Shown here: piece after piece, positions 2,139-19,384 of the stretch
Numbering within the stretch: the stretch's first letter is position 1
Layout of the letters: each line of letters begins with the position of its first letter
Source of the DNA: Candidatus Poribacteria bacterium
GTDB taxonomy: Bacteria > Poribacteria > WGA-4E > UBA9662
Direction: 5' to 3'
NCBI GenBank assembly: GCA_046582655.1
Contig: JAYGDX010000089.1
Coordinates: 20,129-84,128, forward strand
DNA: 64,000 nt
The notes under the pieces: generated by a model
Databases searched by the model: none
What the model was told of the DNA's origin: nothing
The model's input: only the letters and a program-made list of their open reading frames with translations
Program-made: the position numbers and the translations under genes

Positions 2139-2418
2139 GTTGCTTTTTGCCTTACATCTATTACTCAAAACAGATAGGGTGGGAAGAGTGGAAAGTCAAT
2201 TGCCACGAAAATCCAGAACCTAGGGTAACTACATTGGGTGACATTTGTCAGCAGATCTTTATAGAAAAAACGATATCGACGACGAGCAAAAAACATACCT
2301 AGATATCCAGTCAGTTGATTTATATTTTGAGAAATTAACTGGCATAGATCGAATCTCTTTTCTACAAATTAATGATGAGTGGAAAGCAGAAGGCAAACGG
2401 CAAAAAATTAACCAGAGA

Positions 2419-5070
2419 TCACAACATGCTCTTCTCATCTTTAACACCGTACAATATCTTTTTGACATCTTCTTGGTATGTGTTTATTTTCTTCTGATTG
2501 ATAACTATAGCCGACTTTTCTTCAACAAGGTACAATGTCTTTATATTTTCCATCTCAAGGTGTGTTGCCATTATCAGTCCACCGCTAAATTCCGGTTTTT
2601 TTTGAAAGGCTACCAAACCATAGTGGGAATTATCTATCTTGAGTTGATCAACGCTCACTTGAGATAGGTCTTTACTTGCCAAACCGATCTTGGCATTTTT
2701 AATATCCACTCGATGAACAAGCATTTCACTGTTCTCTCCAGCACTAAGTCCTTTATCGCCACATCCATCGATTGTAACATCTTTGACCTGAACTATACTG
2801 CCAGACACATCAATAGCATCATTCCCGCAATGTAAAAAAGATGATTCCATGACCTCACCTTCACAGAAATCGATATCAAGCGCATCAGAAAATGAATGGC
2901 TAAAAACCGTATTTCTAATCATGAATTCCGATCTCATAATATGGAGACTGTCCTCAGATCTTGAGCCAATGAACTGACAGTTGGCAATCTGAACTGGTGA
3001 TTCATAAAATGTAATTGCTCCTGTCAACTCCCAACCATTTTTTGCAGAGGCTGCCAAATTGTGAAACTTGACGAACTTTAGTACCGACTGCTCTGAAGAG
3101 CTCATAACCGTTAAACCCTGTCCCGACGAGTTGTCAGACGAAATGACAATCGGTTCCTCTTCGTTACCGATAAAATAGATCGAAGAGTAAGAAAGGATCG
3201 TAGCGGAATCGATTAAATTGATCTTTACACCTGACGGACAAACTAGATGATAGTCCTCCGGCACTATCAGGTCTTGATCAATCGTCCATGTTCCCCTTTG
3301 AATAGAAATTTGCTTTAATTCTTCGTTGATTTTCAAGAAATCAAATGCATGGATATTAGATGATTGCCGGATAAAATCATGCTTTGCGAAATCATTCCGC
3401 ATGTAAGACCAGGGAAAGACAGTTTCGGACCTTGTCTGATCCGTTCCCAAAATCCGGTAATTAATTTTTAGATTAGATCTCATACTATCATCCCACGCAA
3501 AATCTGCCGGAATCCCAAATTTGATGTTCTGATAATTTGTGAGTTTCCTCGGCACTTTGGCGGGAAGAATGATCTTCCCATTAGCTTGAAATGTAACTGA
3601 GTCCTTGTATGAAACGCTATCGACCTCAATTGGCAGGGGCTGGATGCTTGCTACCTGAAGCTCAATTTCATTTTCATCTACCCTATATTGATAGGCATGC
3701 AGTCCCTTGACAGGATTTAGAATTGCTTTAATGTATTCTTGGTTCTCTCTATACACCTTTTTCGAAAAATGAGGCCGAAAAAATTCACTTTTAAGAATAT
3801 TAAGATTAATAGCGAGATTTACATCTAAAGACGCGAACAGATTATCGAGATAAGCAGGTTCTGAAATCCGATTTAGCGCTTTGACATATCGACGAAAGAA
3901 TGTTTCATCGTAAAAAACCCTTGCATAATAGCTATGTCCAATTTGTGACGCATGGTTTCCAAGGTAATTTCCGTTAATTGTGGCACACAATGACCTAACA
4001 GGTTGACCTGCATTTCCATCAAACCCAATAGGCTGTAATTTCGAGGTTATAGGATTATAATAGAATCTTGCATTATGCCAACGTGAACCGTGTTCAGCTC
4101 CCATTAGATCGGTAAGAGCAAAGAATTTAGCCAGTTTCTCAACATCGAAAACCTGACTGGTCTTTAATTGTCCCCGACGAAATAACTCCAGTAGATGCAC
4201 TGCTTTGAGATACTGTTTGTGATTACTTGGTTTCGAAATCCACTTCGTTGTTTGAAATGTATCGATACCACTTGAGAGGTAAGACCCGCTGCTCATCTTA
4301 GCTTGATTAAATGCACTTTTTTGTGCTATTTCTTTCCAGAAAAATTCTTCATTGAATCTGACGATTGGTCCGTCATGTAACTGGTTATGACCTAAAAGAT
4401 ATTCGTCAAAATGTTCTTCTAAGGCATAAATGCCTAGATCCTCTTGGTTCAAGACAACTCTAATAAACTGATAACGCAACCCCAGAAGACCTTCTCTTCT
4501 CAATGTTTGATGGAAAAGCCATTCATTAAGATAATTCCGTGTTTTGGGATGATGTATGGAAAACCTTTTCATTCCCAAAATAGTGTTATTTCCTTTAACA
4601 ATGATTCGGAATGACCATTTTTTACCTTGAAGATGATCTATGTGGTCGCCTTTTAGGCGAAGTTTGACCTTTATTGCCTCATCTCCATGTTGTATCATCG
4701 CTGGAACATAGTCGGCTTTCGTAACAAACAATTTATCTTTTCTCAAAGCACGTTCTCTTTGAAGAGACAGGCTGCGAAAGTTTTTAGGCTTGATATCTAT
4801 TCGAATCTGATCTGCTTTTTTCGTTTGTCGTATTCGCGAGAAACTGACAGAGACAAAAATTGCAAACGAATCGCGAACCGATTTTATGTTATCCTCGAAT
4901 TCACTATAGCAATGACCTCCATAAATGAATATTAATAAGCTGTATACCATGAATAGAGAACCTATAAACAGGTAGAACGATAGTTTCCAAGATCGGGCAT
5001 TCTTGAGAAGCCAATTTTTTTTGCCCTTTAATGAAATCCAGTGCTGCCCATCGGAATTTTTGATTTCCAA
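2419..5070 (-). CDS. CotH kinase-family protein with an N-terminal membrane anchor and a C-terminal right-handed beta-helix-like region
   Basis: 883-aa ORF with a TTG start and GGAG 9 nt upstream. It has an N-terminal hydrophobic segment (SFYLFIGSLFMVYSLLIFIYGG). The central region has CotH-like motifs (HNQLHDGPIVRFNEEFFWKEIAQ..., GFDGNAG, YYNPITSKLQPIGFD). The C-terminal third resembles beta-helix repeats (NAKIGLASKDLSQVSVDQLKIDNSHYG, GNDAIDVSGS). Confidence 0.65.
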   Translation of the reverse strand: MEIKNSDGQHWISLKGKKNWLLKNARSWKLSFYLFIGSLFMVYSLLIFIYGGHCYSEFEDNIKSVRDSFAIFVSVSFSRIRQTKKADQIRIDIKPKNFRSLSLQRERALRKDKLFVTKADYVPAMIQHGDEAIKVKLRLKGDHIDHLQGKKWSFRIIVKGNNTILGMKRFSIHHPKTRNYLNEWLFHQTLRREGLLGLRYQFIRVVLNQEDLGIYALEEHFDEYLLGHNQLHDGPIVRFNEEFFWKEIAQKSAFNQAKMSSGSYLSSGIDTFQTTKWISKPSNHKQYLKAVHLLELFRRGQLKTSQVFDVEKLAKFFALTDLMGAEHGSRWHNARFYYNPITSKLQPIGFDGNAGQPVRSLCATINGNYLGNHASQIGHSYYARVFYDETFFRRYVKALNRISEPAYLDNLFASLDVNLAINLNILKSEFFRPHFSKKVYRENQEYIKAILNPVKGLHAYQYRVDENEIELQVASIQPLPIEVDSVSYKDSVTFQANGKIILPAKVPRKLTNYQNIKFGIPADFAWDDSMRSNLKINYRILGTDQTRSETVFPWSYMRNDFAKHDFIRQSSNIHAFDFLKINEELKQISIQRGTWTIDQDLIVPEDYHLVCPSGVKINLIDSATILSYSSIYFIGNEEEPIVISSDNSSGQGLTVMSSSEQSVLKFVKFHNLAASAKNGWELTGAITFYESPVQIANCQFIGSRSEDSLHIMRSEFMIRNTVFSHSFSDALDIDFCEGEVMESSFLHCGNDAIDVSGSIVQVKDVTIDGCGDKGLSAGENSEMLVHRVDIKNAKIGLASKDLSQVSVDQLKIDNSHYGLVAFQKKPEFSGGLIMATHLEMENIKTLYLVEEKSAIVINQKKINTYQEDVKKILYGVKDEKSML

Positions 5071-5107
5071 CTAATATGTCTCCATAGATGAGCGCCAGCA
5101 GATGGCG

Positions 5108-5785
5108 TTAGCTATTGTCTATAAATGAGATGCGCATTGAATCATTAAGCCCCTGCAACTCAGATTTACTCATCTCTAGTTGTGAATAATTCTCAAAACC
5201 AACCAGAAATGATGCTTCCAATAAATTCGAGTTTTCGTCAAATCTCTTTAAATTAACATCCGTACAATGCTTCTGAAGCACTTTGATGATAACATTAAGT
5301 TCGTTTCCATCCTGAGTTGGACTTGAAATTGTAAGATATAGGTTTTGGCCATTTTCCATATTATTTTGATTTATATTTCTCAGCCAGATTATCGCAATAA
5401 TTGTTAGTAATGTAACAATTGTGATGATAGCTTGATTTGCTCCAATACCCATCCCAATTGCAATAGTGAGAAACAGATATGAAAGTTCTTCTGGTTCTTT
5501 GATTGCTGTTCGGAACCTAATGATTGAAAGTGCGCCAATTAAGCCTAGCGAAAGTACGAGTGATGATTTTATAATTGTAATGATAAACATTGTTGTCATT
5601 GTAATCGGCAAAAAATTTCGAGCGAATTGTTTTCGGTTGGAGAGTGCTGATCCGTATTTGGCATAAACCCAACCTAAAACTAACGACAGAACTGCGGACA
5701 GAAACAGGTTGAAAATCATGATCCAAACGGAGACTTGTTCGGCCGCGTTAGCTGACAATTCTTGTAAGATCGGTAAATTTCTCAC
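5108..5785 (-). CDS. DUF4956-family integral membrane protein
   Basis: 225 aa, GTG start, several TM helices, and the characteristic IIRFRTAIKEPEE motif. It lies between the ABC ATPase and CotH genes. Confidence 0.6.
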   Translation of the reverse strand: MRNLPILQELSANAAEQVSVWIMIFNLFLSAVLSLVLGWVYAKYGSALSNRKQFARNFLPITMTTMFIITIIKSSLVLSLGLIGALSIIRFRTAIKEPEELSYLFLTIAIGMGIGANQAIITIVTLLTIIAIIWLRNINQNNMENGQNLYLTISSPTQDGNELNVIIKVLQKHCTDVNLKRFDENSNLLEASFLVGFENYSQLEMSKSELQGLNDSMRISFIDNS

Positions 5786-7938: not shown

Positions 7939-10900
7939 CTAGTTTCCTGCTAATACCTTGAAGTTCCCAACATCCTCAAGAATTAGCAGGCCGAGACTAC
8001 TGGGAGGAACTGACTCAGTATTGGGCATTTGTTCGGCCCAATAAACCGATCGTTCATCTGACCGGTGAATGATGAAATTAAAACCCAGCTTATTGTTTCG
8101 TTTCATTTTTATGGGATCAAATCCTTTAAGTATAGGATAGAAAGGGAGGCGTGCCTCGATCATATAATAATTTTCCTGCTCAGTCACGGCTATTTGTAAT
8201 CCCTTAGCTTCATAATTCGGAACCAGTCTGGGTGCAGACTGTCCGAAATATGGCCGGCTACCATTAAAGCCGCCGCCCTTCGGACAAACCCAAAAAATGA
8301 ACCGATCCGAATCACCTTGGCTGTCGAGGTAATCAGGCCTGTGTTCATGTATCGGGTGGAGGTCAATATGGAGTTCAAGTGCATCAGAACCTTGATAGTA
8401 TCGAATTGGATCACCCACTTCAACTTGATTGTCATAAATTTGTGCTAGAAAGTATAGTGAGTCTTGATCCCATTGTAGCCACAATAGACCTTCATTTTTT
8501 GGAGTCACGATTGCCTTTTCGAGTGGCCATTGATCATCAAGACCATCAATGACGACGGGTTTATTGGTTCTTGCTGCCCAAGCAATCAAATTCGATCGGC
8601 ACATGGTTGTTATCTCAACATTTGTTTCACCAGTCTCAATTAAACGATCATCGTAAATCATGGCAATCATTTCCCCACCGGTCAATCCAAGCTCATTGGA
8701 TTCATTGATATCTCGTCCATATGCTGTTTGAATTGATCCACGAAATATCCGGGAATTTTTACTCTCTTCCAGAAGCACAATATGACTACCTGTTTCCATT
8801 TCATTGACCCGTACTCGCAAATTGGCTGATTCAGTTATAGAAGGGTCAACATTGAGATCCTGATCTTCCAAGCGGAAATAAAGTGTGGCGCCAATATTAA
8901 AATTCCGAAGCACTGAACCGTCTTTACGGGTGACAGTTAAATTGCCACGGATCCCTTTATTAGCGTAGGTAATATCCTCGACAGTTGTTGCGTTGATGGC
9001 ACTAAATTGAGGCGAATAGATGGCAGTTACTGCTTCTTCTCCTTGGACGTCAAGTGTGTCATCTGCGACTGCTGTTCTTCCATAGCGGGTTGGAACGACC
9101 CCCCAAAATACGCCGTTTTGGTTCGGCTTCTTTTCTAGTACTACATCAACCTGATCTTGTGTTCGGTTCCCATAAATAGTGATCGTCACTTCACTTGCGT
9201 CAACGACAGTACTGAGAAGAAGATCTTCAAGCCAGAAGTAAAGCAGATCTCCAGCCATAAAACTGCCGACTTCACTTTCATTGTCATCGGTAATCTTTAG
9301 AATGCCTTCATTACCGCTGAGCACAATAGCCTGCACCTTTGTCATTATTCCGGTTTCACCAGTTGCTGTGAGTGCGTCCAAATAGCTTATAGCAATCACT
9401 TCCTTATCAGTAAGCACCAATCCAATTGGATCGGTATTTGCCTGATTACTAGTTGTGAAGGTTCCTGCAAAGATACCGGAATTTTTGTTTGTTTCGTGCA
9501 GACTAATAACCTTCTCGTTTCCCAGTACATTTCCACGAACAGTTACTTTTGTTGACTCAATTTTTTCAGGAAAGAGATCTAAATCTTTATCAGTTAACCG
9601 AACCAACAGTTGTTCGCTATTATTGAAACTTCCGATACCAACAGAGAAATTGCTGATTAAACGAAGTGATTCGACAGTATAAATTTCAATATCACCGGTT
9701 TCTCCCACCGCTACCATCAGATCAACACGGATTTTCACCTGTGTTGCGCCGGTATCCTGTAAGGCATCAGTATACACAAAGGTGACAATGTCACCGCCTT
9801 GAACCTGCAGGACACCATCATTCACAATTGGGTTCGAGCCGTAATCAGTTTTTAGTCGACCGCGAAAGACACCTGCGTTTCCAAAAACCCCCCACATCGT
9901 TATCCTTATCCTATCACGAACCGTATTTTCGGTAAGATCGGTTTCGAATACCTGAGCCACTACGTTTGTTGTATCCAGATCTGCATCTTTGATTTCAAGG
10001 ATCAGCGTGTCACTCGCACGAAAACGGTTTATTGGAGAATTCAACATGGAATCTGGATTAAAACCTGATTCATTATAAACATGAATATTTCCAGTCGTCC
10101 CAACGTTTGTTTCACAGGTATCAACAATCTCGATATTTGTTTCACCAGTTGCCCTCAAACCATCAAGATAGACAGCCTGAATTTTTTCTGCCCCTTTTAC
10201 CTGAATTACTCCATCATCAATTTGCGCTTCGGTGCTATATAGCGTAGGAATAGAACCGGAAAAGTTCCCTTCGGCAGACGTCGAGAACAACACTAACTTC
10301 TCCCGATCGTTTAGCATATTACCACTAAGAGCAATCGCAATAACATCCTGAACGATGTCCTTATCACGAAGACGCAAGTGAAGCATGTTTCCAGCGTTGA
10401 AATTCTCCAGATCAGTCACCTGATTTGATTGTACAATCCCAATGATCCCATCATAGCCAGTCACGGCCTGAGCGACTCTCGAAATCAAGACTCCAGTCTC
10501 TCCGGAACCCCGAATTTGATCGACGTAACCAACCGTAACTTTTTCACCACCGACTACTTCGAGTTTATTGTTTTTAGTGTCAGCTTTTATTGCATATGTC
10601 GTTTCGACAGAGGCGATAAAAATACTGCTATCAGCATCGGTTTCAGTCAAAGCCAGTCTATATTGATCCTGTAATTGATCCCCTTCAATTATGACATCAA
10701 TGATTTCTTTTTGCGTTAAATCTTGATTGAGATCCGTATCTTGGAGTTCAATTTGTAGTGGAGTTCCTGCTTTGAAAAGCATGTCTCCGGGTATCAGTCT
10801 TCCGTTGATATTTAATTGTGCGGTATCGCCAATTTTTACCGTTTTTTGAGTTTGAATTGTTACATTGGCTTCACCTGTTTCTCGCAGTTGATCCACATAT

Positions 10901-13716
10901 ATGGCACTAATCGTCTGCATCCCAACTGCTTGAAGTATCATGTCATTTGGATCAGAAGTTTCACTGTAGACAGTTGTGAACTGTCCAGAATGATAGTTAT
11001 TTTCTGAATCAAACAAAAGTTTAAGTGATTCACTTTCATCAGTTCCGATTACTGCGAGCTCCACCTCGATCTCGCTACTTTTTGACACGTCGGCATCTTG
11101 AACAATAATATGAAGTTTCGAACCCAGTTCAATCATCTTAGCCGGTCGTTCGACATTATTAATGAAGATTTTACCGTCGTTCCCGCTGGTTGCAACCACT
11201 GTTGCTTCAACCAGCTTGTTTCGTTCGTCACGACTGAAATAGGGATCAATGTAAGTCAATAGAATTTCGTCATTTCCACGTACTTTTAATATATCCAACG
11301 AACTACCTTCTGCATCGGAAGTATCTCGCTCTTTTTCAAAGACTGTTACAACCCGAGTGGTGAACAGAGAACTATTTTCAGATCTATTACCCCTAACATC
11401 ATCAATTAGGGTAGTAAAATCAGTCTCATATAATGCAAGACGCATGGTTTGGCTAGTAGTGGTATTCGTTAATGCGGCTTGAATTGACTCCGACTCTGCG
11501 CGGTCGGTGTTACTATCTGCATCCCACACACATAAGCTAATTACATCACCCGCTGTAAAAGTGAATATGGGCATTAGCAACCGTTCATCCATAAACACAA
11601 CCCGACCGCTAATTTGGCTGACCAGTTCAATTACATTCCAATCACTGGGTGAAGCGTTTACATCACCAGATGCATAAGCAAAACTACGATCTCCCACAGA
11701 ATAGATGTAATTGAATCCAATCGATTTGCCAATGTCGGGAATATAATTCTGAAGAACCAGATCTTTTGGAAGACATACTTCTAGGTTATATCCCTTGTCT
11801 GTCGGCATGATTTTGGCGTCGATATATTTATGGAAGTTAATATTCTTAGGGATGGCATCCATGTGGTGGTGAATCTGGGTGGGATGAACGAAAAGTTGAT
11901 TTGTGTCCGATCCGTAGATTGTCAAAACGAAATGGTGGTCACTTGTTTTGTACATGCCAGTTGAAGCTTTTCTGGTAGAATCGCAAAAGATATGAATGAC
12001 ATCGCGATCCGTACTTTTAAGATCGGCATGTTTGATAGTAGCAGCAATATAAAAATTTTCTTCGTTCCATTGGGTGTAGAGCGTAACTAGATCTTGTATT
12101 GGTTTAGCATCTAAAAAACGGCCAAATTTTTTGGGATCCGGATCAATTTCACGTGCCATGTGTGGATACAAAAGGTGCCAATCTTCTATATAACCATCAA
12201 TTACGATCTCTTGATTCACCTTAATGGCACGACCAATCTGATCGTTTGACAATTGCTGAGACTTTACCATTTCAGAACCAGAGATTTTGATCGGTCGAGC
12301 TTCATATAGCCGTACTTCGGAAACGACTGCATTGGGACCGGCAATTCGATTAAAATGAAGTTCCATACGTCCGTCGGCATAGGCCTCAGAGGGAATGGGA
12401 ATAGTTCTTGTGCTGAAATCTCCTACAGGTATTTCAATTGCCGGATGAAGGATGTGCCCATCAACCAGAAGATCCTGAATACGTGTTCCACCATTCTCTT
12501 GCAGATATTCCACCTCTACCCAATAGAGCATCCAAGGTTTAAGTTGATTGTAGCCAACTTTTACAGCGTTATAATGGTAAGAGAAACTTCTGGCGGAATT
12601 AGGATTACCCGGATTAACTTTGTCAGGCTCTCCACCTTCAGCAAGAAAATATCGATTTTCGCCACTGGTATCCCGATCAAAGGCAAATCCCTGTATCAGG
12701 TGCGGAGCTAAGATGTTATTTGCCTCACCAAGCCGCTCATGTTGCATCTGGATAGCGTTGTAATCCCTAAGTTCCCTCTCTAAACTATTAGGACGATAGT
12801 CTTTAGTATAGACCTCAAATTCGCGAATCTCAGCATAATCACCATGCCAATCACCATTTTCAATTTGTAAACGAATATAACGTCCCTTCATCGGCATATC
12901 AAAGAGATGTTGATCTGCCACAGTCTCATCCGGTAATTCCTGAGATATATAGATATTCTGATAATCCTGTCCATTCGAACTGATAGCAATTGAGTAGGTC
13001 TTAACGTTGTCTCCGGGACCATCAGTAGTCAGCTGAAACCCGTATATCTTTTGAATTTCGCCGATATCTGCGGTAACATAAACAGGTGTTTCCGGCGGTT
13101 TGTATTTTATCTCAACTTCTTCCCCTCCGTCCTCGACTTCAGTTTCTATTCGTTGCGCCGCCGCCCATTTTGAATCTCTGAAAGGAATTAGATCCTTTAG
13201 CATAGACAACTCAACTTCATTATAATTGGAAGTCATCGATTGAATGGGTGTATGGGATTTGTATCTTAATCCAACTTGAAAATCATCGACTTTTAAATTC
13301 GGTCTATTATTAAACCAGTCATTGATCACAACCTGAATCCAACGCGCTTCAGTTGGAAACTGAAAACGCTGCAGCGCGAAATTGTATTCACGTGAACTAC
13401 CAACATAAGAAAAGGCACGTGTAAAACGTGATTTCGATCTGTCCTTTCCTACTAATATATCAAACTGTTTCGGTCCACTTTCATTTGGGTCTTCAAATCG
13501 AACCTTAACTTTGTCAACCAGGTAGACATAACCGAGATCATAGGTGGCAAAGGGAGGGTCGCTCCTGAGCAAATCTGCCGACCGGAGGGATTCATCATCC
13601 ATCTTGCGAACGGGCTTGATGAAGTATTGGTTTGTTCTCAGATTAACTTTATTTCGCGGATAAAACAGAAAACCTAGTAGGATTGCGATACTGCTGAGGA
13701 AAAGATACTTAGCCAC
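7939..13716 (-). CDS. Giant (1925 aa) repetitive cell-surface protein. It has an N-terminal signal anchor, discoidin-like and CBM9/DOMON-like domains, about 12 tandem ~110-aa beta-sandwich repeats, and a C-terminal CBM9-like domain.
   Basis: A single uninterrupted ORF. The N-terminus is MAKYLFLSSIAILLGFLFYP. Internal repeats share the motif ...NSGIF.G.I.T.YG....DDGVLQVQGGE.I.A.Y.D.L..TGET.V.I... at least 12 times. F5/8-C-like segments end in ...IREFEVY. CBM9-like segments include WHLLYPHM and LWLQWDQDSLYFLAQIYD. Confidence 0.85.
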   Translation of the reverse strand: MAKYLFLSSIAILLGFLFYPRNKVNLRTNQYFIKPVRKMDDESLRSADLLRSDPPFATYDLGYVYLVDKVKVRFEDPNESGPKQFDILVGKDRSKSRFTRAFSYVGSSREYNFALQRFQFPTEARWIQVVINDWFNNRPNLKVDDFQVGLRYKSHTPIQSMTSNYNEVELSMLKDLIPFRDSKWAAAQRIETEVEDGGEEVEIKYKPPETPVYVTADIGEIQKIYGFQLTTDGPGDNVKTYSIAISSNGQDYQNIYISQELPDETVADQHLFDMPMKGRYIRLQIENGDWHGDYAEIREFEVYTKDYRPNSLERELRDYNAIQMQHERLGEANNILAPHLIQGFAFDRDTSGENRYFLAEGGEPDKVNPGNPNSARSFSYHYNAVKVGYNQLKPWMLYWVEVEYLQENGGTRIQDLLVDGHILHPAIEIPVGDFSTRTIPIPSEAYADGRMELHFNRIAGPNAVVSEVRLYEARPIKISGSEMVKSQQLSNDQIGRAIKVNQEIVIDGYIEDWHLLYPHMAREIDPDPKKFGRFLDAKPIQDLVTLYTQWNEENFYIAATIKHADLKSTDRDVIHIFCDSTRKASTGMYKTSDHHFVLTIYGSDTNQLFVHPTQIHHHMDAIPKNINFHKYIDAKIMPTDKGYNLEVCLPKDLVLQNYIPDIGKSIGFNYIYSVGDRSFAYASGDVNASPSDWNVIELVSQISGRVVFMDERLLMPIFTFTAGDVISLCVWDADSNTDRAESESIQAALTNTTTSQTMRLALYETDFTTLIDDVRGNRSENSSLFTTRVVTVFEKERDTSDAEGSSLDILKVRGNDEILLTYIDPYFSRDERNKLVEATVVATSGNDGKIFINNVERPAKMIELGSKLHIIVQDADVSKSSEIEVELAVIGTDESESLKLLFDSENNYHSGQFTTVYSETSDPNDMILQAVGMQTISAIYVDQLRETGEANVTIQTQKTVKIGDTAQLNINGRLIPGDMLFKAGTPLQIELQDTDLNQDLTQKEIIDVIIEGDQLQDQYRLALTETDADSSIFIASVETTYAIKADTKNNKLEVVGGEKVTVGYVDQIRGSGETGVLISRVAQAVTGYDGIIGIVQSNQVTDLENFNAGNMLHLRLRDKDIVQDVIAIALSGNMLNDREKLVLFSTSAEGNFSGSIPTLYSTEAQIDDGVIQVKGAEKIQAVYLDGLRATGETNIEIVDTCETNVGTTGNIHVYNESGFNPDSMLNSPINRFRASDTLILEIKDADLDTTNVVAQVFETDLTENTVRDRIRITMWGVFGNAGVFRGRLKTDYGSNPIVNDGVLQVQGGDIVTFVYTDALQDTGATQVKIRVDLMVAVGETGDIEIYTVESLRLISNFSVGIGSFNNSEQLLVRLTDKDLDLFPEKIESTKVTVRGNVLGNEKVISLHETNKNSGIFAGTFTTSNQANTDPIGLVLTDKEVIAISYLDALTATGETGIMTKVQAIVLSGNEGILKITDDNESEVGSFMAGDLLYFWLEDLLLSTVVDASEVTITIYGNRTQDQVDVVLEKKPNQNGVFWGVVPTRYGRTAVADDTLDVQGEEAVTAIYSPQFSAINATTVEDITYANKGIRGNLTVTRKDGSVLRNFNIGATLYFRLEDQDLNVDPSITESANLRVRVNEMETGSHIVLLEESKNSRIFRGSIQTAYGRDINESNELGLTGGEMIAMIYDDRLIETGETNVEITTMCRSNLIAWAARTNKPVVIDGLDDQWPLEKAIVTPKNEGLLWLQWDQDSLYFLAQIYDNQVEVGDPIRYYQGSDALELHIDLHPIHEHRPDYLDSQGDSDRFIFWVCPKGGGFNGSRPYFGQSAPRLVPNYEAKGLQIAVTEQENYYMIEARLPFYPILKGFDPIKMKRNNKLGFNFIIHRSDERSVYWAEQMPNTESVPPSSLGLLILEDVGNFKVLAGN

Positions 13717-13728
13717 AAAGCTAACCCT

Positions 13729-16128
13729 TTATACTATGTCAAGAGAATTTTTTAATTCTTGAAGCCGACGACTAATTTTTTGCTTGTCAATTCGGTTCCC
13801 GTCAACGTATTCCCTTAACTCATGCGGCAAATTTGGTGGAACCATCGACCGGGAATTTGCTTCACGAAGTGCCAAAAGTCCCATAAATTCGTTCATCTCA
13901 GGTGAATGTTCAGGAACATAGTCGTCCATGGTTCGATTTAGATCTTCTTGGGACACAACCTCACGTTCATGCCGTTTGGCAAGGTTATAGCTTCTCAGCA
14001 CAATACGTTCAAGATCTCCACCGCTCAGTCTACGTGTCGCTCGGTTAGCTTGGCTAAAATCAATGCCATCAACGGAAATCTGATGTTTTCTGAAAAGTTT
14101 CTCCAGAATATCAGCACGTTCCTGACCGGTTGGCCGCAGCAAAATTAATCGATGATCAAAGATACCACGTTGTCGAAACACCGGATCAATGGCATCGGGG
14201 CGGTTTGATGCACCAATCCAGAGAATTTTACCGTGGTATTCTGGATCACTGATCATATTGGTCAGTTCAGCGGGCAACATACTGTTTGGTGTTTGCACGC
14301 CATTACTAACATGTGGGTTGCTTACCAAATCGATTTCGTCTACAAAAACAATTACCGGTATTACGGCTTGAACAAAACTAAGTGCCATCCTTAAATCGCT
14401 TTGATACGATTTTCCATCACCCGCCATTGGTCTCTCAATACCAATCCATTCCCGTGGACTTTTAAGTCGAACAAATGTCAATCCACTGTATCTTGCAATC
14501 ATCTGAGCTAACAAGGTCTTACCGGTACCAGGTGGTCCTAGCAACAACAACCCCCGCGGTGCACGCTTCAGATCACCTTGATGGATAGCGGACATGATAT
14601 CTCTCATTATCTCACCAACGTGTCTCATACCACCGACCACTGAGCGATCGTAGGGAGTCGGCACAACTTCTAGTAGACCTCGACTGTGAGTCTCGACATT
14701 CTCACGTCGATACTGAGCAATTAGCGTTGGAGTAATCGGTTCACGCACCTCCTCTGCTCGCAAGGCAACGTCATGGATACCAAAGAGGGTAAGACCTGCG
14801 GTATCTCGGGCAGCTTGTTCAATCGTTAAATCTGGGTGAAGTTTTATCTGTGTCGTAATTTGCGCTCGTGAATCTGGATTGGTCTGAACAGGCAAGCTGA
14901 TCAAGTGATTAATAAATTCAAATCGATCATTGTAATCCGGAAAAGGAATTTCCACTACCGGCACATCACTATTTTTCGTCAATACTGGGTGGACATCGGT
15001 GATATCATGTGCTACCATCAAGAAAAGGTGCTTTTTCAGTCTTATATCGAAGTCCGCTGCCCACCTCTGCAATGTATCCAAAAACGTCGTGGTCTCTTTT
15101 GGGAGTACAGACATTTCCCCACTTGGCGCGACTTTCTCTGTATAGAACATCACCAACCCAACCTTGTATCTTACAGTATTGAAAAGTGTATTAAGCTGAT
15201 TTAACCAATCAGAGGTTATTGGGAGCTTACCAGAGCCAATGAAGGGGTCTTCATGCATCTTCTCGTGAATTACACCGGAGTTGATTTTCGTGCGATGCGG
15301 GTCAACTTCACGTTCAGAAACAATCTCCCACTGAGCATCTTCAATTTCTACCGGATTACCACTCGAGTCCTCGCCAGCAAGTTTGAATTTATAGGGTTCC
15401 CTTGGTTTTATCTCTCTTGGCATTTCCTCAAATTTGATTTTGGTAAGTTCCCCAGGAATAACTACGATCTCATCAGACTCAGCATTCACATTATGTACTT
15501 GAACAGTGATCTTGCCCTTGCCTGCCTTTGAAGCAGTAAAAACACCATCAGGGGTTATGTCACCAATTCCTCCTTCAACTTTCCAGCGCGCCTGTTGAAT
15601 CCCAATTGAACGATTCGATCCGTCAAAACCGGTTAATTTTAGCCGGATTTTTTGACCAGATTCTATTTCAAATTGTTGAGGTGAAATTTCAAGCTGCTCA
15701 ATCTGGTCATCCGTAATACGGAACCGTGGTGATTCGGTACGCACATTGCCAACTGAAGCACGGATTCGCCCTAGCCCCAGTTCCTCTGCTATAAACGTTC
15801 CCTGCCCATCAAATTGACCGACAGAGGGTAAACCCCCCTGCATCTCACCAACCCATTTAACATCCTCACTAACCAACCCAAGTGAACGTTGGATCCATTT
15901 CCAATGGTCTATTTGCGGCCAAATAATTCCTTGTGAAGGTGTATACCCAAGAACAATATCACACCCAACCATATTCAATTGTTCCATGAGATAATAGAAT
16001 ATGGGTAAATACCCATGTTCCGCGTCTTTTGCCAAGTCATATGTATTATAGTGAAGCATAAACATATGGGCAGAACCTGCTTTGTACTCTTTGGCAATCC
16101 TATCAAAAAAGCTGGGCATTTCCCTCAT
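13729..16128 (-). CDS. AAA+ ATPase (classic clade) with an N-terminal domain of unknown function and two bacterial Ig-like (Big_2-like) domains
   Basis: 799 aa with no signal peptide. Walker A LLLGPPGTGKTLLAQ, Walker B VIVFVDEIDLV, and an SRH region NRPDAIDPVFRQRGIFDHRLIL. Ig-like segments include GKGKITVQVHNVNAESDEIVV. It ends 12 bp upstream of the giant-protein gene. Confidence 0.8.
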   Translation of the reverse strand: MREMPSFFDRIAKEYKAGSAHMFMLHYNTYDLAKDAEHGYLPIFYYLMEQLNMVGCDIVLGYTPSQGIIWPQIDHWKWIQRSLGLVSEDVKWVGEMQGGLPSVGQFDGQGTFIAEELGLGRIRASVGNVRTESPRFRITDDQIEQLEISPQQFEIESGQKIRLKLTGFDGSNRSIGIQQARWKVEGGIGDITPDGVFTASKAGKGKITVQVHNVNAESDEIVVIPGELTKIKFEEMPREIKPREPYKFKLAGEDSSGNPVEIEDAQWEIVSEREVDPHRTKINSGVIHEKMHEDPFIGSGKLPITSDWLNQLNTLFNTVRYKVGLVMFYTEKVAPSGEMSVLPKETTTFLDTLQRWAADFDIRLKKHLFLMVAHDITDVHPVLTKNSDVPVVEIPFPDYNDRFEFINHLISLPVQTNPDSRAQITTQIKLHPDLTIEQAARDTAGLTLFGIHDVALRAEEVREPITPTLIAQYRRENVETHSRGLLEVVPTPYDRSVVGGMRHVGEIMRDIMSAIHQGDLKRAPRGLLLLGPPGTGKTLLAQMIARYSGLTFVRLKSPREWIGIERPMAGDGKSYQSDLRMALSFVQAVIPVIVFVDEIDLVSNPHVSNGVQTPNSMLPAELTNMISDPEYHGKILWIGASNRPDAIDPVFRQRGIFDHRLILLRPTGQERADILEKLFRKHQISVDGIDFSQANRATRRLSGGDLERIVLRSYNLAKRHEREVVSQEDLNRTMDDYVPEHSPEMNEFMGLLALREANSRSMVPPNLPHELREYVDGNRIDKQKISRRLQELKNSLDIV

Positions 16129-16544
16129 CTTAATCCTAGGGTTTCATTGTCCTTATCATAATAGCATGGCCACTATCAATTAGCAAGACTTTGCTTACGC
16201 TCGTTTAAAGAGTTTAACCTTCTAAAGTGAGCTAGATTCTGACCAAAGGAATTAGCATACTAAAGAAGAAGATAGAGAGCCTGGATTCGAAGTTGCTAGG
16301 ATTATCCAGCTCGAAAAAATTGCACCTCCGAACCCTGAACTACTCTCCCAAACTCAGGATTCAGGGCAACTGGTGGGTTGGATAACAACTCCAATTCCCT
16401 AAAAGATGATTCAAGAATTACCAATGCCTGGAATGCTACTAGGACTCATTGAGGTTGGGAATAAAGTCCAGAGCATCAAGAAATTGCTGATATCCCCTTT
16501 ATCGGTCCTCGAGCACATTACCTGTCACGAATTAATAGACCTCT

Positions 16545-17376
16545 TGCAAAAGTAGAAAGAAATGCTAGAATGAAAGATGGGATACCAAGAGATAAAAGAT
16601 AAATCAGGATCAGATTATAAGCGATTGACTGGAGTTAGCCCACAGACCTTCCATCAGATGCGACAAATGTTAGAACAGTCCCAACCTCGGAGGGAACGAC
16701 CAGCTAAACTGAGTTGTGCCGATCAATTGTTAATGACCTTGATGTACCGGCATGAATACCAGACTTAGTTTCACCTTGCCCAAAGCTATCGCCCAAGCGG
16801 AGCCACTGTTTGTCGCACCATAGCGAAAGAGGAAGACTGATTGATACAATCAGAACAGTTCCGATTGCCGGGTAAGAAGAAACTGCTAGAGAGTGACAAG
16901 CAAATTTAAGTCTTGTTAGTAGATGCCACCGAGCAACCAATTGAACGGCCGAAAAAAACAAGGACAATATTACAGTGGCAAAAAGCGGCATACGCAGAAA
17001 GCACAATTGGTGATAAATTTAGCCTTCCGACAGATCCTGTTCACCACTTTTGACAGCGGAAGGAAACATGATTTCCAGTTGTTTAAGAACAGCTAGACAA
17101 AGATTTAGAGGACAACTCTGTTGTTTGTCTGATTCAGGTTACCAGGGACTATCCAAGTTGCATAGCAACAGTTGGTTGCCAAAAAAGCAATCCAAACATC
17201 GGCCCCTGAGCCAGAAGGGGGAAGCCTCTAATAGAGATTTAGCCCGAGGCCGTATTTATGTTGAACATGTAATTGGCAAGTTAAAAGTCTTTGGCATCCT
17301 GTGCCAGCGTTATCGAGACCATCGCCGGTGTCTTTCACTACTGCTTTAACCTGATAGCTTCTATCTACAATTTGGA
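16545..17376 (+). mobile_element. Degenerate IS5-family (DDE_Tnp_4 / IS1031-like) insertion sequence remnant
   Basis: Transposase fragments lie in different frames (see the pseudogene entry). Candidate imperfect terminal inverted repeats are ttgcaaaagtagaaagaaatgcta (16545..) and tccaaattgtagatagaagcta (reverse complement of 17355..17376). At about 830 bp it is short for an IS5 element, which fits internal deletions. Confidence 0.45.
16577..17349 (+). pseudogene. IS5-family DDE transposase, disrupted by frameshifts and stops
   Basis: The N-terminal fragment reads MGYQEIKDKSGSDYKRLTGVSPQTFHQMRQMLEQ...LSCADQLLMTLMYRHEYQT. The middle fragment, in another frame, reads LLVDATEQPIERPKKQGQYYSGKKRHTQKAQLV. 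The C-terminal fragment reads DSGYQG...RGRIYVEHVIGKLKVFGILCQRYR. All are typical of DDE_Tnp_4 transposases. Confidence 0.6.
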
Positions 17377-18253
17377 ACTCACCCTTAAATGCTGATTTAG
17401 GCAAGAGGTTAAATGTTGTTTCTTACTGAATTTAGCTAGATGCTTGAAATCTCACCCACGCTTTCAATTCAATTGGATGCATCAGTTGAATTTGGCGAAA
17501 TTATGGCCTCGGCACTTGAAATTTCTCTTAAAAATTTGCCTAATACAGAATTGCGCCCTACAAGAACTTTTCCTACCATGTAACAGATACAGTTGTTGTA
17601 CTAGGTTCGCGAGTTTTCTGCGCACTGATTGAGGATGTACTGATTGTCAGCTTAGGTTAGACTTCACAACTATCAAATCTTAATCGCACACTATCGAATA
17701 AAGCTTCCAATGATTTCCTGCAAATCGTGGACCATGTACATGACCAATCAGTTCCTTGGTGCAGGGTAAGTGGACCTGAGATTGAACTTAAAACTCAAAA
17801 TCGATATCGCCTGTTTATTTATTGTTGCAATTTCCTCGCTTGCTTTAAGTCCATCAGTTGTGCCGATACTCTTAGTGCCCCTACCGCACGACGACGAACA
17901 CCAACAAATTAATCCTGTAATGTTCCGATCAAAGCATAAACAACACCTACTTTATCCTCTTTCTATTTCTGCTGATTACTTAATGCAAAAGTGCCTCTTG
18001 TTTTCCAAAAAAGTGAGGTAGGGAAGGATGCGTGTTAGCAACGATAGCGAAATCAAGATATCAAGATATAGCTCAAAGATACCAAATGTATTGGCAAATC
18101 AGATAGCCACAAGGCGAAACTGGATCAGGATCTTAACGTGCGACTGAAATCAAAACAAAATACACTGTACATTAAGATCTGTAACAGGGAAGACGATTAG
18201 GCGTTTGCAGTCCGTTTCACTAACTCTTCAGGTAGACTAATTAAGTAGATCAG

Positions 18254-19384
18254 TTATGAGGGATCAAGATAGAATTTTTGGAGCAGTTTAAGCTGATGCG
18301 ATGATATTTCGGTTGGCAGTTTAACTCGGAGTGTTACAAGTTGATCTCCAGTATCCGTTCCTGCTTCATTCGGAAGCCCTTTACCAGAAAGTTTAAATTT
18401 ATGATTGGGTTGTGTTCCAGCAGGGACATCAATATGGATAAAATCATCAAGCGTTTGTACCGAGATCTGTGTCCCCAAAATAGCATCAATAAAATCAACC
18501 CCCATTTCACTATGGAGATCGTTTCCGTGTCGCGAGAGGTATGGATGTTCTCGAATCCGGACTTTCAGAAATAAATCGCCGTTTGGACCATTATGTAAAC
18601 CCGGTTCCCCCTTACCAGAAATCTTTAAGCGAGTGCCGTCCTTAATACCTGGTTTTACAGTAGCCATAATTTTGTGTTGTCTCTCAATCCTACCGGTTTC
18701 ACTACAATTGAAGCAGGGAATTCCTTTGTCATCGATGTTATCACAGCAACTGGGACATATACGTTTAACATCAACGTTTCCCATTCTCACCTCGATAGTA
18801 CCAGTTGCTGCACATCTTCGGCACCCCCGCGAGTCAATGGCTCCTTGTCTCCCTATACCATTGCAGCGAATACAGGTTTCGTGAATGGTCACAGGGACCA
18901 TAAACTGTCCACCTTGTAAAACATCTTTTAGGTCTATCTCAAGAATCTGCTGAACGCTTTCACCACGCACGGGTCTTTTTATTTTTGTTTTCTGACTTTC
19001 TGATTCGGTGAAGAAATCATTGAAGAAATCTGAGAAGGAAGCACCCGAGAATTTCCCTCTTGTTCTTGCGCGTGCAGTCGAAGTTGGAGGTTCGTTGGTC
19101 GTTCGTGCTTGTGGCTTTGACCTTGGAGAAGATTGGTAACTATGTTTAGCAGACGGTGGTTTTGCCTTGTTTTTACTAGTAGAATAAGACTGATCGTATT
19201 CTGCTCTTTTTTCCGAGTTTGAAAGAATGGCATACGCTTCTGAGATGCGTTGGAATTTATCTTCAATGCTGAAGTTATTAGGATTTTTGTCGGGATGGAA
19301 TTCAATCGCAAGCTGACGGAATGCTTTTTTGATCTGGTCAAGCGTAGCAGACGTTGAAACCCCTAGAATTTTATAGTAATCCAC
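18254..19384 (-). CDS. DnaJ-class molecular chaperone with a J domain, a low-complexity linker, a CR-type zinc-finger and a C-terminal domain
   Basis: N-terminus MDYYKILGVSTSATLDQIKKAFRQLAIEFHPDKNP (HPD motif). There are four CxxC(x)G repeats: CIRCNGIG, CRRCAATG, CPSCCDNIDDKG and CFNCSETG. I do not assign the dnaJ symbol because the linker is atypical and paralogues may exist. Confidence 0.85.
   Translation of the reverse strand: MDYYKILGVSTSATLDQIKKAFRQLAIEFHPDKNPNNFSIEDKFQRISEAYAILSNSEKRAEYDQSYSTSKNKAKPPSAKHSYQSSPRSKPQARTTNEPPTSTARARTRGKFSGASFSDFFNDFFTESESQKTKIKRPVRGESVQQILEIDLKDVLQGGQFMVPVTIHETCIRCNGIGRQGAIDSRGCRRCAATGTIEVRMGNVDVKRICPSCCDNIDDKGIPCFNCSETGRIERQHKIMATVKPGIKDGTRLKISGKGEPGLHNGPNGDLFLKVRIREHPYLSRHGNDLHSEMGVDFIDAILGTQISVQTLDDFIHIDVPAGTQPNHKFKLSGKGLPNEAGTDTGDQLVTLRVKLPTEISSHQLKLLQKFYLDPS

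What the first reader, a model, noticed from the sequence alone, without database searches (positions are those of the whole stretch)
7939..16128. Cytoplasmic AAA+ ATPase carrying Ig-like domains, 12 bp upstream of a 1925-aa repetitive surface protein
Seen in sequence: the 799-aa protein has no signal peptide. It has one classic-clade AAA module (GPPGTGKT, VFVDEIDL, SRH with Arg fingers), an unrecognised ~110-aa N-terminal domain, and two Big_2-like Ig domains. Ig domains are unusual in a cytoplasmic ATPase. Its stop is 12 bp from the start of a single 5.8 kb ORF. That ORF encodes a signal-anchored protein with discoidin-like, CBM9/DOMON-like and about 12 tandem ~110-aa beta-sandwich repeats (recurring ...NSGIF.G.I.T.YG...DDGVLQVQGGE...Y.D.L..TGET motif). 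The pairing suggests a dedicated partner for this giant adhesin or S-layer-like protein, acting as an unfoldase or a secretion or assembly chaperone. I do not recognise either protein as a member of a described system.
Basis: partly seen in the sequence, partly recalled or inferred. Interest (0 to 1): 0.65.

Follow-up and report, generated by a model that had tools for sequence, protein, structure and literature searches.

The report
Ig-bearing AAA+ ATPase beside S-layer-like giant
In some uncultivated Poribacteria, a cytoplasmic ATP-driven motor protein with built-in immunoglobulin-like domains is encoded directly upstream of a conserved 216-kDa surface-layer-like envelope protein, which suggests, but does not prove, that the motor helps make or maintain that protein.

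Summary
Both ORFs are real. They lie on the minus strand of a Candidatus Poribacteria genome, 12 nt apart.

**AAA protein.** It is not "N-domain + Ig + one AAA". A degenerate, P-loop-less AAA-like D1 module is split by two Big_2-like Ig domains, one of them circularly split. An intact classic-clade AAA module follows. The Ig-less architecture belongs to a broad, unnamed family whose closest labelled relatives are phage proteins auto-named ycf46.

**Giant protein.** It has exactly 8 (not about 12) 120-aa beta-sandwich repeats, 2 discoidin domains, 2 CBM9-like domains and a conserved N-terminal anchor. The same architecture recurs across Poribacteria. The repeats best match the Nitrosopumilus S-layer structure, and weakly the anammox Kustd1514 S-layer family.

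**Linkage.** AAA-then-giant adjacency recurs in four independent flanking contexts besides the window's own, with giant identity as low as 33%. However, 7 of 12 sampled giant loci lack it. Every adjacent AAA carries the Ig insert; none of about 68 Ig-less paralogues is adjacent. Only the main adjacent clade keeps an aromatic pore loop together with both Walker motifs.

**Verdict.** A dedicated-partner role is plausible (about 0.4) and unproven. I class it as a new variant of a known kind, of moderate interest.

The parts
16158..16186 (-). Promoter-like site (TTGCTA-17-TATTAT with TG) 30 nt upstream of the AAA start. An AGGA ribosome-binding site lies 5 nt before the ATG.
   Evidence: This is a consensus match only; the number of such sites in the region equals chance expectation.
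13729..16128 (-). Gene for the 799-aa cytoplasmic AAA+ protein (D1-degenerate, Ig-insert-bearing, Ycf46-like architecture).
15844..16128 (-). AAA protein aa 1-95: first half of the degenerate AAA-like D1 module (beta1-alpha1-beta2-alpha2). 'FMLHYNTYD' stands where a P-loop would be.
   Evidence: Residues H21, L25, H26, N28 and D31 are invariant in 33 homologues.
15274..15843 (-). AAA protein aa 96-285: inserted Ig region. It consists of a Big_2-like C-half (aa 98-142), a full Big_2-like domain (aa 143-226) and an N-half (aa 226-272).
   Evidence: The insert is absent from about 70 paralogues.
14629..15273 (-). AAA protein aa 286-500: second half of D1 (beta3-beta5 plus helical lid). It has no Walker B acidic pair.
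   Evidence: a profile of this domain finds 652 representative proteins.
13909..14628 (-). AAA protein aa 501-740: intact classic-clade AAA module. Key residues are K537, W561-I562-G563 (pore loop 1), D597/E598, N642 and R652/R654.
13732..13908 (-). AAA protein aa 741-799: conserved helical C-terminal tail (SPEMNEFMGLLALREANSRSM..P).
   Evidence: The match to phrog_8638 extends to aa 767.
13717..13728 (-). 12-nt intergenic spacer (agggttagcttt) containing a weak AGGG Shine-Dalgarno-like element. No terminator is present.
7939..13716 (-). Gene for the 1925-aa, 216-kDa, acidic (pI 4.7) S-layer-like envelope protein.
13657..13707 (-). Giant protein aa 4-20: the single N-terminal hydrophobic anchor or signal, with the family-wide motif LLGFLFYPR.
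13303..13575 (-). Giant protein aa 48-138: discoidin (F5/8 type C)-like domain 1. This is a weak match.
   Evidence: 22-25 bits, below the Pfam cut-off when scanned alone.
12817..13092 (-). Giant protein aa 209-300: discoidin (F5/8 type C) domain 2.
   Evidence: 48 bits.
11701..12072 (-). Giant protein aa 549-672: CBM9/DOMON-like domain 1. This is a weak match.
   Evidence: 19.3 bits against a cut-off of 23.4.
8599..11610 (-). Giant protein aa 703-1706: eight tandem beta-sandwich repeats of about 120 aa.
8053..8478 (-). Giant protein aa 1747-1888: CBM9/DOMON-like domain 2.
   Evidence: 34.4 bits.

Best explanation
The two genes form one transcription unit in a free-living-type Poribacteria genome.

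**Downstream gene.** It encodes a phylum-conserved, acidic, 216-kDa envelope protein.
- Its N-terminal hydrophobic segment takes it through Sec and probably keeps it anchored.
- Its eight Ig-like beta-sandwiches, two discoidin domains and two CBM9-like domains lie outside the cytoplasmic membrane.
- There they form an S-layer-like or glycan-binding coat.

**Upstream gene.** It encodes a cytoplasmic ring ATPase of a Ycf46-like, type-II-like design.
- It has a catalytically dead D1 tier and a live D2 tier with an aromatic pore loop.
- Its two Ig domains, inserted in D1, take the place that the N-domain has in p97/Cdc48 as the substrate- or adaptor-binding module.

**Proposed mechanism.** I propose that the ATPase recognises the giant pre-protein with its Ig domains. 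It then threads or unfolds prematurely folded beta-sandwich domains so that the 1925-residue chain stays competent for export, or clears failed copies.

**Shown**
- The gene pair, its spacing and its recurrence.
- The domain architectures.
- Intact motor motifs in the main adjacent clade only.
- The association between the Ig insert and adjacency.

**Inferred**
- Co-transcription.
- Hexamer formation.
- Export of the giant.
- Any physical or functional contact between the two proteins.
For: **Operon-like layout**
- The 12-nt gap has a weak ribosome-binding site and no terminator-like site. A promoter-like site lies upstream of the AAA gene.
- The order AAA-then-giant recurs on one strand with gaps of 11-130 nt in L001, L002, L004, L006 and L084/L085.
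- The other neighbours in those loci are unrelated:
  - DnaJ and ABC ATPases;
  - an epimerase;
  - an O-methyltransferase;
  - GFO_IDH and the Pup-proteasome genes.

**Association with the Ig insert**
- Six of 8 informative Ig-bearing loci are adjacent to a giant, against 0 of about 68 Ig-less loci. Fisher p = 1.3e-7, not corrected for phylogeny.

**Motor motifs**
- Only clade A (window, L001, L084, L004, L006), whose members are all adjacent, keeps all of the following together: the Walker A lysine, the Walker B motif, E-W-[ITV]-G in pore loop 1, and SRH arginines.
- Other clades show GTGR, GNGN, ID-MD, IE-AD or a lost aromatic residue.

**Architecture of the ATPase**
- The AAA module is classic-clade and closest to VAT/p97/PAN/FtsH.
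- The whole model aligns over about 500 columns to the p97/Cdc48 D1-D2 tandem.

**Nature of the giant**
- In 116 homologues the charges flanking the anchor favour an N-in/C-out topology.
- The best structural matches of the repeats are the Nitrosopumilus S-layer entries 8c8k/8c8o/8c8r, at E = 8e-12 to 6e-9. Generic Ig folds score about 1e-5 to 1e-4.
- The only NCBIfam hit is the Kustd1514 S-layer family, E = 4.6e-15.
- The architecture is fixed at 8 repeats across the phylum.
Against: **Linkage**
- Seven of 12 sampled giant loci have no AAA neighbour: L081-L083 and L088-L091. The giant can therefore be made without an adjacent partner.
It is Ig-less and has GTGR and ID-LD in place of the Walker motifs.
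- L002, although adjacent, has GTGR and no pore-loop aromatic residue.
- Ig-bearing AAAs also occur away from the giant. One group lies beside an Rce1-like protease (L005, L086, L087, L093, L094). Another lies beside UPF0182 (L007).

**Contact between the two proteins**
- The Ig insert and the giant's repeats show no sequence relationship.
- The mature giant would expose only about 3 residues to the cytoplasm.
- No interaction test was possible.

**Topology in this protein**
- In the window protein itself the charge flanks (+1 on the N side, +4 on the C side) do not favour export.

**Limits of the statistics**
- The association counts are not phylogenetically independent.
Confidence: 0.4

Rival explanations
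1. The AAA is a general-purpose remodelling or regulatory ATPase of the Ycf46-like family. Its targets would be proteostasis, signalling or some unrelated substrate. Its position upstream of the giant would then be inherited synteny or simple co-regulation, with no direct action on the giant.
For: - The D1+AAA architecture is widespread outside Poribacteria and in phage-like contexts, with no link to surface proteins.
- Poribacterial paralogues lie beside housekeeping genes such as polA, topA, accD and ftsEX, near HSP20 genes, or beside unrelated genes.
- Most sampled giant loci lack the AAA.
- In the window's lineage a DnaJ paralogue lies just upstream on the same strand, which fits a general chaperone neighbourhood.
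Against: - Only the AAA-giant pair is kept across four otherwise unrelated flanking contexts besides the window's own, down to 33% giant identity.
- The Ig insert is found only in the lineages that are, or are close to, the adjacent ones.
- Full motor motifs persist specifically in the adjacent clade.
Confidence: 0.3
2. The AAA acts on the giant after membrane insertion rather than before export. It would extract or turn over the anchored protein, or hand it to a protease, as Cdc48/p97, Msp1 or FtsH do for membrane proteins.
For: - The AAA module is closest to FtsH/PAN/Cdc48.
- The two-tier p97-like model.
- The strongly conserved anchor motif LLGFLFYPR in the giant suggests specific recognition in or at the membrane.
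- A related Ig-bearing lineage is paired with an Rce1-like intramembrane protease.
Against: - The giant's cytoplasmic N-terminus is only about 3-4 residues long, which gives a cytoplasmic ring little to grip.
- The AAA has no membrane segment and no protease domain.
- No protease gene is conserved beside the adjacent pairs.
Confidence: 0.1
3. The giant is not an S-layer protein. It would be a glycan-binding adhesin or matrix-binding stalk: discoidin and CBM9-like lectin modules held away from the cell by an Ig-repeat spacer. The AAA question is independent of this.
For: - It has two F5/8-type-C and two CBM9-like carbohydrate-binding-type domains.
- Tandem Ig arrays also occur in adhesins; SiiE is among the fold hits (rank 40).
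- No S-layer has been described for Poribacteria in the searched literature.
- The score for the Kustd1514 family is 54 bits against a cut-off of 1400.
Against: - The repeat number is fixed at 8 and the whole architecture is conserved at 33-84% identity across the phylum. This is unlike length-variable adhesins.
- The best fold matches by 3-7 orders of magnitude in E-value are a solved S-layer.
- The protein is acidic (pI 4.7), as is typical of S-layer proteins.
Confidence: 0.3
4. The pair is a mobile, phage-derived or anti-phage defence module.
For: - The closest labelled structural relatives of the AAA are phage proteins.
- phrog_8638 matches the AAA.
- An IS (DDE_Tnp_4) remnant lies just upstream.
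- There are weak PADLOC IetA/TRIP13 hits.
Against: - The PADLOC hits cover only the generic AAA module.
- The giant has no PHROG or PADLOC hit.
- G+C content is even across the region.
- The giant is conserved phylum-wide in differing chromosomal contexts.
- The IS remnant is missing from the 93%-identical locus L001.
Confidence: 0.03

Closest known systems
p97/Cdc48/VAT type-II classic-clade AAA+ unfoldases
   Same: - The AAA module scores best against VAT, p97, NVL and Cdc48 chains.
- The full model aligns over about 480-530 columns to the D1-D2 tandem.
- The active tier has Walker A, Walker B, an aromatic pore loop and SRH arginines.
   Different: - D1 has no P-loop or Walker B and shows no detectable sequence similarity to D2.
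- There is no double-psi-barrel N-domain. Instead, two Ig domains are inserted inside D1.
- The TIGR01243 score is 81 bits against a cut-off of 803.
Ycf46-type AAA proteins (cyanobacteria and plastids; phage proteins auto-named ycf46; phrog_8638)
   Same: - The size and layout of the Ig-less relatives match: an N-domain of about 300 aa plus one AAA module.
- The best viral fold matches are three phage 'ycf46' proteins, with TM 0.56-0.60 over about 440-500 columns.
- There is a sequence match to phrog_8638 over aa 382-767.
- JGI labels some homologues SpoVK/Ycf46/Vps4.
   Different: - Bona fide cyanobacterial Ycf46 was not compared.
- Ycf46 is linked to KaiC and to carbon-concentrating regulation (10.1101/2025.07.21.665879), not to envelope proteins.
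- The Ig insert and the giant neighbour have no counterpart there.
S-layer proteins built of tandem Ig-like domains: Nitrosopumilus maritimus NmSLP (PDB 8c8k/8c8o/8c8r) and Kuenenia stuttgartiensis Kustd1514
   Same: - Size class: NmSLP is 1734 aa with ten Ig-like domains (PMC11153153); Kustd1514 is 1576 aa (PMC5088730).
- Both are arrays of Ig-like sandwiches.
- The window protein is acidic, and acidic residues of NmSLP mediate its cation binding.
- The repeats give the top fold hits and the only NCBIfam hit.
   Different: - Sequence identity in the fold matches is only 13-15%.
- The score is far below the Kustd1514 family cut-off.
- The extra discoidin and CBM9-like domains and the N-terminal anchor were detected here and were not compared with those proteins.
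- No lattice, abundance or glycosylation data exist for Poribacteria.
- I found no dedicated AAA partner mentioned for either protein in the passages I read; I did not search for one systematically.
Secretion-coupled cytoplasmic ATPases or chaperones that keep or make substrates export-competent (T3SS ATPase, T7SS EccA, SecB/SecA). This is a functional analogy drawn from my own knowledge.
   Same: A cytoplasmic ATPase is encoded next to its exported substrate and is presumed to deliver it unfolded.
   Different: - There is no homology beyond the P-loop fold. EccA scores 20 bits.
- No dedicated secretion channel genes lie beside the pair.
- The adjacent ABC ATPases look like oligopeptide-importer subunits. 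This is my reading of the sequence and was not tested.

Membership tests
Classic-clade AAA (Pfam PF00004) | HMM score above the gathering threshold, with Walker A GxxGxGK[ST], Walker B hhhhDE, a sensor-1 Asn and SRH arginines. | tested here: met
   71.5 bits against a cut-off of 21.2. Residues K537, D597/E598, N642 and R652/R654 are present.
Cdc48/p97/VAT (NCBIfam TIGR01243) | Two nucleotide-binding AAA modules plus an N-terminal double-psi-barrel domain. Curated cut-off 802 bits. | tested here: not met
   81.4 bits, with one matched stretch. D1 lacks a P-loop. No N-domain was found.
FtsH (NCBIfam TIGR01241) | N-terminal membrane helices, an AAA module and an M41 zinc protease domain. Cut-off 600 bits. 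| tested here: not met
   89.5 bits, covering the AAA module only. There is no hydrophobic N-terminus and no Peptidase_M41 hit.
Ycf46 | A protein of about 500 aa with a characteristic N-domain followed by one AAA module, and sequence membership with cyanobacterial or plastid Ycf46. | tested here: inconclusive
   Fold matches to phage proteins auto-named ycf46 and a match to phrog_8638. No curated Ycf46 model or genuine Ycf46 sequence was available to compare.
Big_2 (Pfam PF02368) for the Ig insert | HMM score at or above 22.8 bits. | tested here: inconclusive
   16.1 bits, E = 0.011. Homologue P0014 has a precomputed PF02368 hit. Internal half/full/half repeat similarity gives z 8.3 and 8.6.
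Kustd1514-family S-layer glycoprotein (NCBIfam NF052345) | Full-length match at or above 1400 bits. | tested here: not met
   54.1 bits, E = 4.6e-15, with four stretches in the repeat region only. The repeats appear related, but the protein is not a family member.
S-layer protein (functional class) | Forms a regular two-dimensional lattice as the outermost envelope layer and is a very abundant protein. | not testable with these tools
   Only indirect evidence exists: the fold match to NmSLP, the acidic pI and the fixed architecture.
Giant RTX/T1SS or T9SS/PEP-CTERM-sorted adhesins | A C-terminal secretion or sorting signal and adjacent dedicated transport genes. | tested here: not met
   The C-terminus is a CBM9-like domain ending in a conserved PSxLGxLxLE, with no following hydrophobic or basic tail. 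No such Pfam or NCBIfam domains were found. The judgement that the motif is absent was made by eye.

The most novel reading that the evidence does not exclude
The Ig-bearing, D1-dead AAA+ ring is a dedicated biogenesis factor for a previously unrecognised Poribacteria S-layer. It would be a cytoplasmic unfoldase that uses built-in Ig domains to recognise a 216-kDa all-beta envelope protein and feeds it to the export machinery. To my knowledge, no ATPase-plus-S-layer pairing of this kind has been described for any organism.
Probability: 0.2. Interest if true: 0.75.

Novelty: new variant of a known kind. Interest (0 to 1): 0.5.

Why it matters
Poribacteria are uncultivated and their envelope is essentially unknown. 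A phylum-wide, fixed-architecture, S-layer-like protein is a concrete candidate for their surface coat. It gives cryo-ET and proteomics work something specific to look for.

The AAA belongs to a large family of two-tier, D1-dead ATPases that no database names. Here it offers a rare genomic hint at a substrate, because the Ig insert, the intact motor motifs and the neighbouring giant travel together. If the link is real, it would be a new way of handling very large beta-rich exported proteins. It would also be a first functional handle on Ycf46-like ATPases.

Tried and rejected
1. **Sequence test of D1 as a duplicated AAA.** hhalign of D1 against D2 profiles was not significant (P about 0.4). 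The best PDB hit of the D1 profile was PCH-2, at E = 0.17. The D1 assignment therefore rests on the predicted fold only.
2. **Ig insert related to the giant's repeats?** No.
3. **A third conserved gene beside the pair?** No. The upstream neighbours differ: DnaJ, an O-methyltransferase, an epimerase, GFO_IDH. The Rce1-like protease accompanies only the non-adjacent L005-type AAA.
4. **The 759-aa ORF upstream of the giant in L089 as a divergent AAA?** No similarity.
5. **Defence-system or phage-module reading.** Only generic AAA hits were found.
6. **Giant against PDB by sequence.** Nothing was found.
7. **Rfam and tRNA scans of the window.** Nothing was found.
8. **The tandem ORFs of about 630 aa next to short AAAs.** I first took these for AAA paralogue arrays. 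They are secreted WD40-repeat proteins.
10. **Metagenome scan with the single protein.** It returned only near-identical loci.
11. **Literature searches.** Searches for Poribacteria plus S-layer or AAA found nothing relevant.

Full report
**1. What is there**

The finding spans two adjacent minus-strand ORFs:
- 13729..16128, 799 aa, ATG start;
- 7939..13716, 1925 aa, GTG start.

The stop of the first and the start of the second are 12 nt apart (TAA-agggttagcttt-GTG). The spacer holds a weak AGGG element, and no terminator-like site lies between the genes. A promoter-like site (16186-16158) and an AGGA ribosome-binding site precede the first gene. The number of promoter-like sites in the region is no higher than chance, so this is weak evidence. 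The 799-aa protein is 100% identical to an NCBI entry named 'AAA family ATPase [Candidatus Poribacteria bacterium]'. G+C content is even across the window.

**2. The AAA protein**

*The active module.*
- Pfam finds only PF00004, at aa 527-661.
- NCBIfam places the module nearest FtsH, PAN and Cdc48, but far below every curated cut-off, for example 89.5 against 600 bits and 81 against 803 bits.
- A profile of 16 homologues hits VAT, p97, NVL and Cdc48 chains best.
- The active module is complete. It has Walker A K537, Walker B D597/E598, pore loop 1 W561-I562-G563, sensor-1 N642 and SRH arginines R652/R654.

*The region upstream of the module is not a free-standing N-domain.* An alignment of homologues shows four parts:
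- a conserved aa 1-95;
- an optional insert at aa 96-285, present only in the members of about 800 aa;
- a conserved aa 286-500;
- a conserved C-terminal tail.

*Evidence that aa 1-95 and aa 286-500 form a degenerate D1 module.*
- In the AF2 model (pLDDT 77.7), aa 1-85 and aa 300-480 together give the strand-helix order of an AAA module followed by a helical lid.
- Foldseek aligns about 480-530 columns with D1-D2 chains of p97/Cdc48, with TM up to 0.56 per target.
- 'FMLHYNTYD' stands where a P-loop would be. D1 is therefore degenerate.
- Sequence alone does not prove the duplication. hhalign of D1 against D2 is not significant, and the best PDB hit of a D1 profile is PCH-2 at E = 0.17.

*The insert.*
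- Pfam gives a sub-threshold Big_2 hit (16.1 bits).
- Pairwise alignment shows that aa 98-142 matches the C-half of the central domain (aa 143-226), and aa 226-272 matches its N-half. The z-scores are 8.3 and 8.6, and the crossed controls are below 0.
- The insert is therefore two Ig domains, one of them split or circularly permuted. This is plausible because both ends of an insertion lie close together.
- The protein has no membrane segment and no signal peptide.

**3. The wider AAA family**
- In one genome per species (GTDB), 159 relatives were found. All of the best 80 are from Poribacteria.
- A tree of these shows a small group of Ig-bearing proteins and about 60 Ig-less ones of about 615 aa.
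- Many Ig-less members have lost catalytic residues, showing GNGN or GTSK in place of GTGK, or ID-MD and IE-AD in place of the Walker B motif.
- A profile of the D1 domain, scored against 1.84 billion representative proteins, finds 652 proteins at E <= 1e-3.
- Most of these are 570-650 aa, with D1 at the N-terminus and one AAA module.
- The few named ones are 'ATP-binding protein' or 'AAA family ATPase' from Actinomycetota, Verrucomicrobiae, Chloroflexota and Gammaproteobacteria.
- Pfam has no model for their N-domain.
- One sits in a phage-like context.
- phrog_8638, of unknown function, matches aa 382-767 of the window protein.
- The best viral fold matches are phage proteins auto-named 'AAA domain-containing protein ycf46'.
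- The AAA is therefore an Ig-bearing offshoot of a broad, uncharacterised, Ycf46-like family. Genuine Ycf46 could not be compared. Its described links are to KaiC and carbon concentration.

**4. The giant protein**

Its basic properties are 216 kDa, pI 4.7 and a single hydrophobic segment at aa 4-20. Its layout is:
- discoidin domains at aa 48-138 (weak) and 209-300;
- an unassigned stretch at aa 305-490;
- CBM9-like domains at aa 549-672 (weak) and 1747-1888;
- eight repeats of about 120 aa between them, at aa 703-1706, not about 12.

*Conservation.*
- More than 120 homologue clusters of about 2000 aa exist at 33-84% identity. All named ones are from Poribacteria.
- 117 of 120 clusters fit eight repeats; 22 of those scored nine hits, and the one I inspected owed this to a split repeat.
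- This is a fixed architecture, not a length-variable adhesin.

*Topology.*
- The anchor motif LLGFLFYPR is nearly invariant.
- Across 116 homologues the N-flank averages +0.8 and the C-flank -1.5, which favours an N-in/C-out topology.
- The window protein itself is an exception, at +1 and +4.

*Fold of the repeats.*
- An AF2 model of repeats 3-4 (pLDDT 91.5) shows two beta-sandwiches.
- Its best PDB matches are the Nitrosopumilus maritimus S-layer entries 8c8k/8c8o/8c8r, at E = 8e-12 to 6e-9. Generic Ig folds and the adhesin SiiE follow at 1e-5 to 1e-3.
- The only NCBIfam hit is the Kustd1514 anammox S-layer family. It is significant (E = 4.6e-15) but lies far below the family cut-off.
- NmSLP has ten Ig-like domains in 1734 aa (PMC11153153). 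Kustd1514 has 1576 aa (PMC5088730).
- I saw no known C-terminal sorting signal.
- No Poribacteria S-layer appears in the searched literature.

**5. Is the pair conserved?**

*From the AAA side.*
- A giant homologue follows directly on the same strand in L001, L002, L004 and L006.
- It does not in L005 or L007.

*From the giant side.*
- L084/L085, whose giant is only 33% identical, has an 816-aa AAA upstream.
- L081, L082, L083, L088, L089, L090 and L091 have none. The 759-aa ORF in L089 is unrelated.

*Details of the pairs.*
- Gaps are 11-130 nt.
- The pairs share no other neighbour. The pair is therefore kept across four unrelated flanking contexts besides the window's own.

*Association with the Ig insert.*
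- All adjacent AAAs carry the Ig insert.
- No Ig-less AAA is adjacent: 6 of 8 against 0 of 68, Fisher p = 1.3e-7, uncorrected for shared ancestry.
- Clade A, whose members are all adjacent, is the only one that keeps an aromatic pore loop together with both Walker motifs and the SRH arginines.

*Exceptions.*
- L002 is adjacent but has GTGR and no pore-loop aromatic residue.
- The L005 type is Ig-bearing but sits beside an Rce1-like protease and has degenerate motifs.
- L007 and L042 sit beside a UPF0182 membrane protein.

**6. Interpretation**

The best-supported reading is an operon for an exported, S-layer-like envelope protein and a cytoplasmic two-tier AAA+ ring. The Ig insert would serve as the ring's substrate-binding module. 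The ring would act on the giant's precursor, either unfolding or holding it for export or carrying out quality control.

The gene-level facts are shown. Hexamer formation, export and any contact between the two proteins are inferred.

The main rival is that the AAA has a general role and the adjacency is inherited. That most giant loci lack the AAA keeps this rival strong. A further open point is whether the giant is an S-layer or a lectin-type adhesin.

**7. Verdict**
- The partner idea is partly supported.
- Neither protein belongs to a characterised family. Both are recognisable variants of known kinds: a Ycf46/p97-like AAA+ and an Ig-array surface protein.
- Interest is moderate, at 0.5.

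Noticed in passing
window 16577-17349 (+), within the 2.1-kb ORF-poor gap 16129-18253: There are frameshifted fragments of a DDE_Tnp_4 / IS5-like transposase between the DnaJ gene and the AAA gene. The 93%-identical locus L001 has DnaJ only about 355 nt upstream of the AAA, so this is a recent IS insertion that has since decayed.
   Followed up: partly
window 18254-19384 (-): A DnaJ paralogue (J-domain, zinc-finger region and C-terminal domain) lies upstream of the AAA on the same strand. It is not next to dnaK or grpE. The same arrangement occurs in L001 only.
   Followed up: partly
window 1446-5785 (-): A cluster comprises a VTC-domain protein (240 aa), a CotH-kinase plus beta-helix protein (883 aa) and DUF4956 (225 aa). 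It lies downstream of two oligopeptide-type ABC ATPase genes that follow the giant with a 50-nt gap.
   Followed up: no
L013-L031 and similar loci (AAA at about 10001-11848): A large clade of 616-aa paralogues has 'GPTGNGN' where Walker A should be, with no lysine, yet is well conserved. It always lies convergent with polA and a few genes from 2-3 tandem HSP20-like genes. These look like conserved pseudo-ATPases.
   Followed up: partly
L046, L050, L055, L057 (flanks of the AAA): Arrays of 4-8 tandem genes for WD40-repeat proteins of about 630 aa, each with an N-terminal signal-like segment, flank a short AAA paralogue. In L043-type loci the short AAA is instead bracketed by two Laminin_G_3 proteins (262 and 258 aa).
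   Followed up: partly
L005, L086, L087, L093, L094: An Ig-bearing AAA with a degenerate Walker B (VCIE-AD) and no SRH arginines always follows a 191-aa Rce1-like (CPBP) intramembrane protease gene by about 30 nt. An enolase-superfamily gene comes next.
   Followed up: partly
L007 and L042: The two deepest branches next to the giant-adjacent clade are each followed by a UPF0182 large membrane protein gene. In L007 that gene is split into 283 and 1079 aa.
   Followed up: partly
giant homologues P0120-P0239, N-terminus (window 13657-13707): The hydrophobic anchor carries a nearly invariant motif, LLGFLFYPR(G/S). That is unusually conserved for a plain signal or anchor and hints at a specific processing or recognition step.
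   Followed up: partly
P0278 (Chloroflexota; found with the D1 profile): A member of the wider D1+AAA family carries an intein with a LAGLIDADG homing endonuclease just after the start of its AAA module.
   Followed up: no
L081 and L091 (giant loci without an AAA): These loci share a different conserved neighbourhood. A CTP_transf_like gene lies directly upstream of the giant. Small proteins (Laminin_G_3 in L081) and a 444-457-aa VWA-like protein lie downstream. In L091 a BatD/VWA/TPR operon lies further upstream.
   Followed up: no
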